Shown piece by piece: positions 20,629 to 28,484 of a stretch of DNA of 64,000 nt. This stretch comes from Chrysomallon squamiferum. Its lineage: Eukaryota > Animalia > Mollusca. The first letter of the stretch is position 1, and every line of letters starts with the position of its first letter. Both the position numbers and the translations under genes were made by a program. The notes under the pieces were generated by a model. That model was not told the origin of the DNA. It did no database searches and was given only the letters and a program-made list of their open reading frames with translations. Where the stretch lies: contig CM022671.1 in the NCBI GenBank assembly GCA_012295275.1, forward strand, positions 2,976,001-3,040,000, read 5' to 3'.

Positions 20629-21480
20629 CGTGTAGTGTAAGAAACACCAGACAAAGGATAGGTGCTGTAAAGATTTGTATAAATGTATCCTGGTTGTAAA
20701 CGTCCATCTCTAAGATATATGATTGTGACAAGTCGAACAAGTGCCTTAATATACATACAATAACGTGGCGTTCTTAAAATAATAATAATAATAATAATAA
20801 TAAATAATACATAAATAAATGAAAACCACCTACTAATAATTAAAATCCAAACCGAAGGAAAGAAAAACTGCAAAGTTTTATGGATGTGATCAGGCACGTG
20901 TTCAATTTTACAAACTCATATGATCACATGCTGTAAATTTCCACTGCTATTTTAATACATCGAGTAAATAAATTTCGAGAAAAAGAAATACTATCCGGAT
21001 GAGAACAGTATGTGAATTTGTTGTTGTCTGTGGTTTGCTCAGTTATAACAAAACACCCAACCTATATGTGTGATCTCGCTGTTTGTTGATTTATTTGTAA
21101 TGTTAATGTTTTTTTCAGCCAACTATTGCTGATGATAATGAAAATGTTAACAGATTCTCCATCACCCTGACCCTTCCAAATAATACTTGAAATAAAAAGT
21201 CGAAGAATTTTTTAATTCTATTACAGTGAATATTTTACCTATTCTGGCGCTAATCACAACAAAAAGTAATAACATAAAATAAATTAAATAAATAAATAAA
21301 TAAATAAATAAATAAATTTATAAATAATAAATTAAAATATTGAAAATAAATAAATAAATAAACTGACAAAAGAAATTAGTATTATGGATTAACAGAAACC
21401 ATAATAAAGTAAAAGAAATTTAAATTTAATTTTTTTTTATAGGTTATTAATATTACTGAAGAAAAGATCAATTAGTAATC

Positions 21481-24400
21481 ATGAATGTGGCTAAATCTGT
21501 GGTATCTGCTGGATACAATTCCTTGTTCAGTCAGAAGAGTGATCCTGTTGTAACAAAATCAACTGACTCGAGACAACCAGGAAAGCCAGTGGTTCAAGAT
21601 GTTGGCTGTGATTTTATATCTATCAGCTGGGATAAACCACAACACAATGATGTCAGTTATTATGAAATCAAAATGAAACGTGTTTCTGAGACAGCATGGT
21701 CGAAAGTTCCACTCACTACAGATGACAACTCTACTTGTAAAACAATAACTGACCTTACCAAGGACACTGCATATGAGTTCAAAGTTCGAGCACACTATGA
21801 GGAAGAGGAAGGTCCCTTTAGTGAGAAGAGTGATCCTGTTGTAACAAAACCAATGGCTATGAAATCAGCTGATCCAAGACAAACAGGAAAACCAGTGGTT
21901 CAAGATGTTGGCTGTGATTTTATATCTATCAGCTGGGAAAAACCACAAGACAATGATGTCAGTTATTATGAAATCAAAATGAAACGTGTTTCTGAGACAG
22001 CATGGTCGAAAGTTCCACTCACTACAGATGACAACTCTACTTGTAAAACAATAACTGACCTTACCAAGGACACTGCATATGAGTTCAAAGTTCGAGCACT
22101 CTATGAGGAAGAGGAAGGTCCCTTTAGTGAGAAGAGTGATACTGTTGTAACAAAACCAATGGCTATGAAATCAGCTGACTCAAGACAAACAGGAAAACCA
22201 GTGGTTCAAGATGTTGGCTGTGATTTTATATCTATTAGCTGGGAAAAACCACAAGACAATGATGTCAGTTATTATGAAATCAAAATGAAACGTGTTTCTG
22301 AGACAGCATGGTCGAAAATTCCACTCACTACAGATGACAACTCTACTTGTAAAACAATAACTGACCTTACCAAGGACACTGCATATGAGTTCAAAGTTCG
22401 AGCACTCTATGAGGAAGAAGGTCCCTTTAGTGAGAAGAGTGATCCTGTTGTAACAAAACCAATGGCTATGAAATCAGCTGACCCAAGACAAACAGGAAAA
22501 CCAGTGGTTCAAGATGTTGGCTGTGATTTTATATCTATCAGCTGGGAAAAACCACAAGACAATGATGTCAGTTATTATGAAATCAAAATGAAACGTGTTT
22601 CTGAGACAGCATGGTCGAAAATTCCACTCACTACAGATGACAACACTACTTGTAAGACAATAACTGACCTTACCAAGGATACTGCATATGAGTTCAAAGT
22701 TCGAGCACTCTATGAGGAAGAGGAAGGTCCCTTTAGTGAGAAGAGTGATCCTGTTGTAACAAAACCAATGGCTATGAAATCAGCTGACCCAAGACAAACA
22801 GGAAAACCAGTGGTTCAAGATGTTGGCTGTGATTTTATATCTATCAGCTGGGAAAAACCACAAGACAATGATGTCAGTTATTATGAAATCAAAATGAAAC
22901 GTGTTTCTGAGACAGCATGGTCGAAAATTCCACTCACTACAGATGACAACTCTACTTGTAAAACAATAACTGACCTTACCAAGGACACTGCATATGAGTT
23001 CAAAGTTCGAGCACTCTATGAGGAAGAGGAAGGTCCCTTTAGTGAGAAGAGTGATACTGTTGTAACAAAACCAATGGCTATGAAATCAGCTGACCCAAGA
23101 CAAACAGGAAAACCAGTGGTTCAAGATATTGGCTGTGATTTTGTATCTATCAGCTGGGAAAAACCACAAGACAATGATGTCAGTTATTATGAAATCAAAA
23201 TGAAACGTGTTTCTGAGACAGCATGGTCGAAAATTCCACTCACTACAGATGACAACTCTACTTGTAAAACAATAACTGACCTTACCAAGGACACTGCATA
23301 TGAGTTCAAAGTTCGAGCACTCTATGAGGAAGAGGAAGGTCCCTTTAGTGAGAAGAGTGATCCTGTTGTAACAAAACCAATGGCTATGAAATCAGCTGAC
23401 CCAAGACAAACAGGAAAACCAGTGGTTCAAGATATTGGCTGTGATTTTATATCTATCAGCTGGGAAAAACCACAAGACAATGATGTCAGTTATTATGAAA
23501 TCAAAATGAAACGTGTTTCTGAGACAGCATGGTCGAAAAATTCCACTCACTACAGATGACAACTCTACTTGTAAAACAATAACTGACCTTACCAAGGACA
23601 CTGCATATGAGTTCAAAGTTCGAGCACTCTATGAGGAAGAAGGTCCCTTTAGTGAGAAGAGTGATCCTGTTGTAACAAAACCAATGGCTATGAAATCAGC
23701 TGATCCAAGACAAACAGGAAAACCAGTGGTTCAAGATGTTGGCTGTGATTTTATATCTATCAGCTGGGAAAACCACAAGACAATGATGTCAGTTATTATG
23801 AAATCAAAATGAAACGTGTTTCTGAGACAGCATGGTCGAAAATTCCACTCACTACAGATGACAACTCTACTTGTAAAACAATAACTGACCTTACCAAGGA
23901 CACTGCATATGAGTTCAAAGTTCGAGCACTCTATGAGGAAGAAGGTCCCTTTAGTGAGAAGAGTGATCCTGTTGTAACAAAACCAATGGCTATGAAATCA
24001 GCTGATCCAAGACAAACAGGAAAACCAGTGGTTCAAGATGTTGGCTGTGATTTTATATCTATCAGCTGGGAAAAACCACAAGACAATGATGTCAGTTATT
24101 ATGAAATCAAAATGAAACGTGTTTCTGAGACAGCATGGTCGAAAATTCCACTCACTACAGATGACAACTCTATTTGTAAAACAATAACTGACCTTACCAA
24201 GGACACTGCATATGAGTTCAAAGTTCGAGCACTCTATGAGGAAGAGGAAGGTCCCTTTAGTGAGAAGAGTGATCCTGTTGTAACAAAACCAATGGCTATG
24301 AAATCAGCTGACCCAAGACAAACAGGAAAACCAGTGGTTCAAGATATTGGCTGTGATTTTATATCTATCAGCTGGGAAAAACCACAAGACAATGATGTCA

Positions 24401-26788: not shown

Positions 26789-27197
26789 GTGTGTAATAAT
26801 ATATGTAATTGTTGTATGCAACAGCAAAAATAAGAAAAGTTTATTTTCTTTATATTTTTATAACTGCAGTCCACAGAAAATAGTAGATATATCTACATAA
26901 TCCCAAATATTTAAAACAAAATATAATAATTAAAAAATTATAAATTCTGTATTATGAAAATGAAATTATTTTTATCCCACATTTAAAATTAAAAAAAGAA
27001 TTAGATTTGTACAAGTATCAAATGCTTTGATTTTCACTGGTGTATATGCAGGAAATAGAGACATTTCACTTACGCACTTCAGAATGTTAATCAAGTAAAG
27101 TATCTCATTGTTTAAATATACTTTACTGATGTTTGCTTAATTCCAATTTGTAAATTAATCTTAATTTCTTCTTTTTTTATTTCTTTTATTTTTATAG

Positions 27198-28484
27198 TCA
27201 GAATCACAAACTGACTGGATTACCAGCTACAGGTTTCATCCAGTAATAGAGAATGTTGGTTATGTTTTGAACATTATTGACACACCAGGTTTTGGGGATA
27301 CGAGAGGATTTGAACGTGATAATGAGTTAGTGAAACAGATCCAAGCTTTCTTTTCAACTCCAGGCATCAAAGGGATTGAAACAATAGATGCAGTCTGCTT
27401 TGTCACCCAAGCCCCTCTTGCGAGAATGACACATGTTCAGAGATATATTTTTAATGCAATTTTGTCCATTTTTGGCAAAGATGTAGAGAACAACATTGTT
27501 GTGATGATTACATTTGCAGATGGAAAAGAGCCACCAGTCCTGAATGCTTTGGATTATGCCAAATTCCCATACAACAAATATTTTGTATTCAACAACTCGG
27601 CACTTTTTGAGCCTAATACAGAGGGAAAATGCAGCAATGTTTCTCAAATGTTTTGGGAAATGGGACGTTCAAGTTTCCAAGCCTTCTTCACTCATATACG
27701 CACTCTGAACTCACAGAGTCTGCAGCTGACAGCTGACATTTTGAAAACAAGAGAACAAATGGAAATCACAGTCGAAGGTCTCATGCCACAGATAGAGAAT
27801 GGTCTTCATGAACTTTCCACGATGAAAAACGAAAGGGATCTTGTAGAGAAATTTGAAAGAGACATACAAGACAACAAGAACTTCACATACAGCAGTGATG
27901 AACTCCATCAAAAGGAAGTAAAACTAGACTCTGGGGAGTATGTAACCAACTGCACCTTTTGCAATATGACCTGTCACTACCCATGTGCCATTCCTGACAA
28001 TGAAAATAAATATTACTGTAGTGCCATGGAAAATGGTTTGTGTATAGTTTGCCCCAAACACTGTTCATGGAAATTACACAGAAATAATAACTTTCGAATA
28101 GAAACCATTTGTGTAAAGGTGAGTAAAACATACGATGAAATGAAAAAGAAATACGAGTATGCAACCAAAGAGAAGGTTACAAAAAAAAATCTTCTTAAAA
28201 AAATTAAGGACAAATTTGTAAAAGTAAAGGATGTTGTTTGCAATAAGCTAATGCAAGTACGTGAAAACGGTAACTATCTTAGGACAAATGCTTTAAAGGC
28301 AAACCCACTAACAGAAATGGAATACCTTGATTTGTTAATCAATACACAATCACAAGCAAAAAAACCTGGGTTCGAAAAGCGTATTAAAATGCTTGAGATG
28401 TTGAAAAGACAAGCAGAGCTTGCAGAAAAAGCAGTACGCATTGATACTGATGAACTGTTGAAAGAAATGGGATTTGATTCATAA
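27198..28484 (+). CDS. FN3-array GTPase gene, exon 4 (G2-G4 of a septin/AIG1-like GTPase, coiled coil, Cys/His-rich domain, coiled coil)
   Basis: Long polypyrimidine acceptor tttatAG| (phase 0). SQT (G2), IIDTPGFGDTRG (G3), MITFAD (G4-like), CTFCNMTCHYPC..C..CIVCPKHCSWKLH; stop TAA. The joined CDS is 5370 nt (1789 aa). Confidence 0.92.
   Translation, partial: SESQTDWITSYRFHPVIENVGYVLNIIDTPGFGDTRGFERDNELVKQIQAFFSTPGIKGIETIDAVCFVTQAPLARMTHVQRYIFNAILSIFGKDVENNIVVMITFADGKEPPVLNALDYAKFPYNKYFVFNNSALFEPNTEGKCSNVSQMFWEMGRSSFQAFFTHIRTLNSQSLQLTADILKTREQMEITVEGLMPQIENGLHELSTMKNERDLVEKFERDIQDNKNFTYSSDELHQKEVKLDSGEYVTNCTFCNMTCHYPCAIPDNENKYYCSAMENGLCIVCPKHCSWKLHRNNNFRIETICVKVSKTYDEMKKKYEYATKEKVTKKNLLKKIKDKFVKVKDVVCNKLMQVRENGNYLRTNALKANPLTEMEYLDLLINTQSQAKKPGFEKRIKMLEMLKRQAELAEKAVRIDTDELLKEMGFDS

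What the first reader, a model, noticed from the sequence alone, without database searches (positions are those of the whole stretch)
21443..28484. Large intracellular GTPase with a single-exon array of 11 near-identical FN3 domains: candidate variable-repeat immune sensor/effector
Seen: four phase-compatible coding exons giving ~1789 aa, arranged as 11x FN3 + divergent FN3 + GTPase (GATGSGKST, SQT, DTPGFGD, TFAD) + coiled coil + CxxC-rich module + coiled coil. No obvious signal peptide or TM segment. Known: these motifs fit the septin/AIG1(GIMAP)-like TRAFAC GTPases; AIG1/GIMAP members are lineage-expanded and immunity-linked in animals and plants. Inference: a long homogeneous FN3 rod on an oligomerising GTPase could act as an avidity-tuned or ruler-like recognition module. 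It sits in a birth-and-death cluster with a dead paralog next door.
Basis: partly seen in the sequence, partly recalled or inferred. Interest (0 to 1): 0.8.

Follow-up and report, generated by a model that had tools for sequence, protein, structure and literature searches.

The report
FN3-tethered zinc-stalk GTPase of molluscs
This gene, likely from a mollusc, encodes a large GTPase with twelve fibronectin-type domains in front and a predicted zinc-tipped helical stalk behind; it is one member of a big GTPase family that I found no study of, likely acting in cell defence, though no immune role has been tested.

Summary
The gene is real: four GT-AG exons give 1789 codons, with 11 near-identical FN3 units in one exon, a 12th FN3, a G domain and a Cys-rich helical tail. 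Short-read contigs of four runs support neither indel, so these are most likely assembly errors. The protein is neither a septin nor a canonical GIMAP. It belongs to a large family (3,223 clusters at 50% identity) with a Toc/GIMAP-like G domain, followed by a predicted helical hairpin tipped by an 8-Cys/2-His module without a PDB match. Closest relatives are molluscan (62%). FN3 number among 255 homologues runs from 0 to 26; upstream units were amplified separately in each lineage, while the FN3 next to the G domain is fixed. Other members carry stonustoxin-like MACPF, B-box, SEA or CCCH modules instead. A defence role is plausible but untested; homogeneous units argue for recent amplification rather than diversified recognition. 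Earlier notes of this scan describe a possibly related Giardia family; the link is unproven.

The parts
21443..24964 (+). First coding exon: short leader with in-frame stops, ATG at 21481, FN3 array, acidic/Gly linker; phase-1 donor
   Evidence: sequence
21556..24903 (+). Array of 11 near-identical FN3 units (306 or 303 nt)
   Evidence: TRF; Pfam fn3; unit differences
23535..23540 (+). Extra A in a homopolymer of unit 7; shifts the frame, first stop at 23557-23559; likely assembly error
23765..23770 (+). Missing A in a homopolymer of unit 8; restores the frame; likely assembly error
25913..26335 (+). Exon 2: conserved G-domain-proximal FN3 (about 25930-26202) and N-terminal extension of the G domain
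   Evidence: Pfam; unit tree
26613..26788 (+). Exon 3: G1 P-loop GATGSGKST at 26654-26680
   Evidence: RNA contig of X8 covers it
27198..28484 (+). Exon 4: G2 SQT 27204-27212, G3 DTPGFGD 27279-27299, conserved-box-position Arg 27423-27425, G4 TFAD 27510-27521, G5 FNNSA 27588-27602, then stalk; stop at 28482-28484
   Evidence: intron 26788>27198 joined in an RNA contig
27711..28289 (+). Predicted stalk: outgoing helix 27711-27872, long beta-hairpin 27885-27923 / 28092-28130, returning helix 28131-28289
   Evidence: AlphaFold2 model, mean pLDDT 85
27924..28091 (+). Cys8/His2 module at the stalk tip, likely zinc-binding; no Pfam or PDB match
   Evidence: conservation
34187..36331 (+). Pseudogene paralogue: proximal FN3 exon with frameshift, P-loop exon with first G1 Gly lost, last exon lacking the G2-G5 part, with frameshifts and stops
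   Evidence: tblastn

Best explanation
The gene encodes a leaderless, likely cytosolic GTPase with a Toc/GIMAP-like G domain that likely pairs with a second copy when it binds GTP, carries a predicted zinc-tipped helical stalk, and is likely aimed at its targets by an expandable string of FN3 domains, most likely in cell-autonomous defence. Shown: exon structure, domain order, intact G1-G5 motifs, family-wide conservation of the core, swappable N-termini, lineage-specific FN3 amplification. Predicted: fold of G domain and stalk. Inferred: GTP-dependent dimerisation through the conserved-box interface with the near-invariant Arg acting on the partner's GTP (by analogy to GIMAP7 and Toc); movement of the stalk and its tip as the output; FN3 string as a tether or multivalent binding arm; defence role. 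The 11 homogeneous units are best read as a recent run of unequal crossing-over in a single exon, of a kind that recurs in this family.
For: Core conserved in 94 aligned homologues: G1 GxTGxGK[ST]T, SQT, DTPGFGDT, Arg at the conserved-box position in 92 of 94, TF[AS]D, FNNS, and 8 Cys + 2 His each in 92-94 of 94. G domain matches Toc33 (Z 14.6, rmsd 3.8, 199 aligned), GIMAP7 (13.4, 3.1, 183) and GIMAP4 (13.2, 3.1, 162) (model of the 62%-identical scallop protein P0007). GIMAPs dimerise in a GTP-dependent way through switches, P-loop and conserved box (passages of PMC9111091, PMC8201404). Defence hints are family-level: 70 of 255 homologues carry a stonustoxin-type helical domain by a local profile (Pfam confirms stonustoxin domains in 8 of 31 chosen proteins and B-box, SEA and CCCH modules in one each); large lineage expansions (1,214 longer homologues; 3,223 clusters); a pseudogene next door; several paralogous contigs in DNA and RNA runs. 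FN3 units group by protein or lineage while the last FN3 forms its own clade, support 98/98.
Against: No expression, induction, localisation or binding data for this gene. Dimerisation was not tested. The GIMAP conserved-box consensus is only partly kept (PGPH[AV] in 2 of 255). The units are homogeneous, with no variable loop patch, unlike a diversified receptor. This gene has no MACPF or other effector module. RNA support is thin: one 96%-alike contig across intron 3 and one exact 107-nt piece at depth 3-4; no RNA read-out of the FN3-to-exon-2 junction was obtained. The only possibly related protein with functional data, Giardia Gl9605, acts in endocytosis (PMC7058353 passages), and its kinship was not shown here.
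Confidence: 0.5

Rival explanations
1. A membrane-trafficking or membrane-remodelling GTPase with a housekeeping or tissue role (dynamin-like in action: G-domain dimer plus stalk with a membrane-touching tip); the FN3 string is a spacer.
For: Head-stalk-tip layout; Toc and GIMAP work on membranes (passages); Gl9605 mutants block fluid-phase uptake in Giardia; this copy's returning helix is basic, net +9.
Against: The basic charge is not conserved (median 0 in 97 rows); no TM anchor; housekeeping genes rarely show such gain, loss and domain swapping; no dynamin-family structure among the top fold matches, which is inconclusive.
Confidence: 0.2
2. The core is a functional family member, but the array length is a neutral by-product of unequal crossing-over in a single large exon and carries no tuning function.
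For: Units 97-99.7% identical with mosaic sharing of variants; close molluscan relatives have 1, 1, 3, 3, 5 and 9 FN3; 106 of 255 homologues have none; neighbourhood shows other tandem duplication (10-kb repeat upstream).
Against: Long arrays recur independently (9-26 units in 11 of 255 homologues; separate amplifications), and the frame is kept through 11 units.
Confidence: 0.2
3. A stonustoxin-like pore-former relative that lost its MACPF part and acts in trans as adaptor, decoy or GTP-switched partner of MACPF-bearing paralogues.
For: Same FN3 + GTPase + stalk block lies behind MACPF-type domains in fish, lizard, turtle and prawn proteins.
Against: The nearest clade of 57 proteins holds only 1 labelled with the stonustoxin helical domain; no MACPF exon within 21 kb upstream; whether this genome has such paralogues could not be checked (no genome held).
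Confidence: 0.07
4. The gene is itself a young pseudogene: the two indels are real and truncate it to about 690 residues of FN3.
For: Ten stops in the assembled frame; a dead paralogue beside it; contigs can drop rare variants.
Against: No contig of four runs shows the extra A although single-copy contigs at depth 36-85 are kept in X1; both indels are in A-runs; exons 2-4 are fully open and 62% identical to annotated genes.
Confidence: 0.03

Closest known systems
GIMAP / AIG1 (IAN) GTPases, e.g. human GIMAP7 (PDB 3zjc), Biomphalaria AIG family (PMC7053062)
   Same: G1-G3, TxxD-type G4, FNN-type G5, Arg at the conserved-box position; similar G-domain fold (Z 13.2-13.4); tandem clusters and swapped accessory domains.
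   Different: Pfam AIG1 matches only marginally in close relatives (27-36 bits, model positions 2-144 of 212); PGPHA part of the conserved box absent; a 250-residue stalk with beta-hairpin and Cys8/His2 tip; FN3 array, which is not among the AIG architectures named in the section I read.
Toc33/Toc34 chloroplast receptor GTPases
   Same: Best solved G-domain match by fold (2j3e, Z 14.6) and by sequence of exon 4 (E 1e-4).
   Different: No C-terminal membrane anchor; animal protein; large stalk and FN3 arm.
Septins
   Same: G1-G3 region resembles septins (profile hits E about 1e-7); databases label many members 'septin-type G domain'.
   Different: G4 is TF[AS]D, never [AG][KR][AS]D at that place (0 of 242); Pfam Septin matches only positions 6-78 of 280, so not the septin unique element.
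Stonustoxin-like MACPF proteins fused to FN3 + GTPase (database entries from fish, lizards, turtle, prawn)
   Same: Same FN3 + G domain + stalk block, about 42-45% identical over exon 4.
   Different: This gene has no MACPF, stonustoxin helical or thioredoxin-like domain.
G domain + DUF8206 (PF26633) proteins and Giardia Gl9605
   Same: Toc/GIMAP-like G domain with Cys-rich, helical tail according to earlier scan notes; DUF8206 clusters appear among Atlas look-alikes at score 0.78, a lead only.
   Different: PF26633 is in none of the 115 complete Pfam lists among the 120 hits shown (5 lists were cut off); kinship not established.

Membership tests
Septin | G4 motif A/G-K/R-A-D (PMC8640212 passage) | tested here: not met
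   TFAD in the window protein; 0 of 242 homologues have the septin form after G3
Septin | Septin unique element at the end of the G domain | tested here: not met
   Pfam Septin model matched only over positions 6-78 of 280 in close relatives
Septin | Closest fold among solved structures | tested here: inconclusive
   No septin in the 50 rows shown, but FN3 matches filled most of the list
GIMAP/AIG1 | G1 GxxxxGKS, G2 SxT, G3 DxPG, G4 TxxD (PMC7053062 section 5) | tested here: met
   GATGSGKS, SQT, DTPG, TFAD
GIMAP/AIG1 | G5/IAN motif RxxxFNN | tested here: inconclusive
   FNN kept (94, 94, 92 of 94); the leading Arg is not
GIMAP/AIG1 | Conserved box consensus (xPGPHAxLLV...GRF/YTxE) | tested here: not met
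   IDAVCFVTQAPLARMT: Arg-x-Thr kept, PGPH[AV] in 2 of 255 homologues
GIMAP/AIG1 | Full-length match to Pfam AIG1 | tested here: inconclusive
   27-36 bits against a cut-off of 27, model positions 2-144 of 212 at most, in close relatives
GIMAP/AIG1 | GTP-dependent dimerisation through the G interface | not tested
   No complex prediction was obtained; needs biochemistry
Toc33/34 | G-domain fold | tested here: met
   Z 14.6, rmsd 3.8, 199 aligned
Toc33/34 | C-terminal membrane anchor (recalled feature) | tested here: not met
   No TM-like segment
Dynamin superfamily / GBP / GVIN | Dynamin-type G domain with helical stalk | tested here: inconclusive
   Only weak G-domain hits (LeoBC E 5e-5; Dynamin_N E 0.012); stalk matches generic hairpins, best Z 7.2; GBP and GVIN clusters appear in the Atlas only at lead level 0.77-0.80
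Stonustoxin-like pore-formers | N-terminal MACPF/CDC, helical and thioredoxin-like domains | tested here: not met
   No Pfam hit on the exons; tblastn of 255 homologues finds nothing upstream of 21400 at E 1e-3
G domain + DUF8206 | PF26633 on the tail | tested here: inconclusive
   Model not among the hits of the scannable Pfam copy; not listed for the closest long homologues; Atlas lead only

The most novel reading that the evidence does not exclude
The family is an unrecognised class of large immune GTPases, beside GBP, IRG, Mx, GVIN and GIMAP: a GTP-driven dimer with a zinc-tipped lever arm as engine, to which animals bolt interchangeable sensors (accordion-like FN3 strings, B-box, SEA, CCCH) or a pore-forming MACPF effector. 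This gene would show the sensor arm caught in the act of expanding, with unit number setting reach or avidity.
Probability: 0.25. Interest if true: 0.8.

Novelty: new variant of a known kind. Interest (0 to 1): 0.45.

Why it matters
The single gene is one more member of a large family, and long FN3 arrays recur in it. The family is the point: thousands of members, misnamed in databases as septin, AIG1, twitchin-like or stonustoxin, with a strictly conserved stalk and Cys/His tip that match no solved structure, and fused in vertebrates and a prawn to pore-forming domains. If it is a GTP-switched defence scaffold, it gives a testable handle on what non-venom stonustoxin-like proteins do and adds a GTPase class to invertebrate immunity. 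Ten full-text searches showed no paper that describes it, but the library lacks most subscription papers, and I read passages of only eleven.

Tried and rejected
No genome is held for the window, so paralogue counts and synteny could not be done. Foldseek on the whole model returned only FN3 proteins; Foldseek on the tail gave no match at E 0.001 and the wide structural search only generic helical hairpins (best Z 7.2): this does not prove a new fold. Prokaryote scan covered 1 of 64 parts and gave one weak Myxococcales G-domain hit without the family's motifs; viral contigs gave none of 114 candidates; neither shows absence. PADLOC gave only weak P-loop hits. A search with the Cys module alone found 2 proteins among 16 candidates, too weak to map its range. 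The Rap_GAP label on P0258 lies over FN3 repeats and was rejected as spurious. An interferon-response-like motif GAAANNGAAA at 20979 was rejected as chance: 15 such sites in the window. My local B-box label over-matched and was not used. Rfam found nothing. A homodimer prediction was wanted but the queue was full, so dimerisation is untested. Runs X6-X9 hold only 6-8% of the words; only what was laid is used. Lack of RNA contig cover over parts of the gene is no evidence against expression. The sequence look-up of earlier findings gave one unrelated note.
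Full report
Observation. The window is AT-rich, intron-bearing animal DNA. Tandem Repeats Finder gives 11.0 copies of a 306-nt unit at 21556-24903; the ten full units are 97.1-99.7% identical and match Pfam fn3. With ATG 21481 and exons ending or starting at 24964, 25913-26335, 26613-26788 and 27198-28484, all introns are GT-AG and in phase, and the total is 5370 nt, 1789 codons plus stop. The exon's first 38 nt hold in-frame stops, and tblastn with 255 homologues finds nothing upstream of 21400, so the protein starts with the FN3 string and has no leader. 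A later donor for the first exon cannot be fully excluded, since that frame stays open to 25062.

I laid contigs of four runs (X1, X2, X3 DNA-type; X7 RNA; at most three samples, two studies) on 23505-23800. At the first site the base is left out in all of the depth of every run; at the second a base is put in at 709 of 824, 71 of 83, 121 of 121 and 46 of 46 depth units, the rest coming from contigs that end about there. Contigs can drop rare variants, but single-copy contigs at depth 36-85 are kept in X1. Both indels sit in A-runs, so assembly error is the likely cause. Unit contigs have depth 684 and 566 against 67-85 for single-copy pieces in X1, and 71 and 57 against 6.7-7.6 in X2. The tool warns that depth is no copy number; roughly, the array is real and of similar size in both samples.

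Transcription. An RNA contig of X8 covers exon 3 with 7 differences in 177 nt and joins 26788 to 27198 (GT..AG); an X7 contig of a paralogue uses the same intron; one 107-nt X8 piece matches exon 4 exactly at depth 3.

Family. Exon 4 finds 1,214 proteins of 750-2140 residues at E 1e-10 among 5,546 candidates (best 120 listed) and 3,223 clusters at 50% identity (best 150 listed). Over exons 2-4 the best are Gigantopelta aegis (62.7, 61.2%), Pecten maximus (61.9%) and Argopecten irradians (60.0%); in a tree of 241 of the 256 cores (those aligned over at least 420 residues) the protein sits with these and two Solemya proteins, support 1.0. The host is therefore likely a mollusc. Named hits span sponge, coral, flatworm, prawn, bivalves, fish, frog, lizards and turtle; Atlas look-alike clusters add Basidiomycota. 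A local FN3 profile counts 0 units in 106, 1 in 83, 2 in 32, 3-8 in 23 and 9-26 in 11 of 255 homologues; only one other (P0144, 26 units) has many near-identical pairs. In a unit tree the FN3 next to the G domain forms one clade across species (98/98), while upstream units cluster by protein or lineage; P0258 and P0259 are 94.4% identical and differ by exactly one 105-residue unit. Other members carry stonustoxin-type domains (70 of 255 by a local profile; Pfam-confirmed in 8 of 31 hand-picked proteins), B-box, SEA or CCCH modules, or a second P-loop motif (31 of 255).

Structure. The spliced protein could not be folded directly, so I folded the scallop relative P0007 with 94 sequences (mean pLDDT 78) and the window's own last 259 residues with 97 (pLDDT 85). 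The G domain's best solved matches are Toc33 (Z 14.6), GIMAP7 (13.4) and GIMAP4 (13.2). The tail is a long helix, a long beta-hairpin with a Cys/His-rich tip, a returning helix and short terminal helices; the two long helices align as an antiparallel hairpin to generic coiled coils only (best Z 7.2; Foldseek none; no Pfam). Eight Cys and two His of the tip are kept in 92-94 of 94 sequences, which suggests zinc binding (inference).

Membership. Not a septin: G4 is TF[AS]D and the septin unique element is not matched. GIMAP-like in G1-G5 and in an Arg at the conserved-box position (92 of 94), compared with the motifs in section 5 of PMC7053062, but the box consensus is only partly kept and Pfam AIG1 is marginal. 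It works like a GIMAP/Toc GTPase by inference; it is better filed as a separate family of that branch. That this Arg is catalytic in GIMAP7 is recalled, not seen in a call; passages of PMC9111091 show the box at the dimer interface.

Mechanism. Most likely (0.5) a cytosolic GTP-switched dimer whose stalk and tip deliver the output and whose FN3 string is a swappable targeting arm, used in cell-autonomous defence. The defence part rests on family behaviour (gain and loss, domain swapping, fusion to pore-forming domains) and on analogy to molluscan AIG genes, which respond to immune challenge (abstract of PMC7053062) and are enriched among dispensable genes in lancelets and molluscs (passages); those papers concern AIG1 proteins, not shown to include this family. 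Against it: no data on this gene, homogeneous units with scattered conservative changes, no effector module. Rivals are membrane trafficking (0.2), neutral array length (0.2), a MACPF partner in trans (0.07) and a young pseudogene (0.03).

Literature. Ten searches gave no description of this family. I saw passages of PMC12107551, PMC3417536, PMC7058353, PMC8640212, PMC10566576, PMC4202326, PMC8201404, PMC12373286, PMC9111091 and bioRxiv 10.1101/2020.09.15.298695, and the abstract and sections 5-6 of PMC7053062; no supplements. The stonefish genome paper has no occurrence of fibronectin, FN3, GTP or P-loop in its main text. The stonustoxin structure paper (Ellisdon 2015) and the GIMAP structure papers were not seen and may mention such fusions. 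Earlier scan notes point to a Giardia G domain + DUF8206 family with Gl9605; I confirmed that Gl9605 is published as a dynamin-like endocytosis factor but could not show kinship.

Verdict. Real gene, observation partly confirmed, interpretation partly supported. New variant of the GIMAP/Toc branch; interest 0.45, mostly for the family rather than for this array.

Noticed in passing
window 39500-54900 and likely beyond, minus strand: FANCD2 gene: six of seven tested exon frames match Pfam FancD2; it converges on the GTPase cluster.
   Followed up: partly
window 2-8264 and 10275-18350: A tandem duplication of about 10.16 kb period, 92-98% identical, with no homology to the GTPase gene and no ORF with a Pfam hit among those tested.
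   Followed up: partly
window 19090-19977, minus strand: GC-rich, broken reading frames that look like a Mutator-type transposase relic (resemblance recalled; only a weak FLYWCH hit, E 0.05).
   Followed up: partly
window 20919-21085, also 2844-3196, 8887-9208, 13011-13363: A 160-320-nt element repeated four times at 83-86% identity, one copy about 360 nt upstream of the first coding exon; promoter piece or small mobile element.
   Followed up: no
window 24965-25062: The FN3 exon's frame runs 32 codons into intron 1 before a stop; intron retention would give an FN3-only protein. P0258 and P0259 are FN3-only database entries that may be such read-through gene calls.
   Followed up: no
runs X1, X2, X7 laid on window 26520-28700: Several paralogous contigs at about 85-92% identity; in X7 a 1466-nt paralogous RNA contig has depth 50 against 6-9 for closer ones, so the genome holds more family members than the window.
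   Followed up: no
proteins P0001-P0005, P0013-P0027 and others: Many homologues hold two or more tandem copies of the GTPase core (31 of 255 with more than one P-loop motif), recalling multi-G-domain GIMAP8.
   Followed up: no
L001 4578-6581: A 667-aa Myxococcales P-loop GTPase with C-terminal hydrophobic helices; weak G1-G3 likeness only, not a family member.
   Followed up: partly
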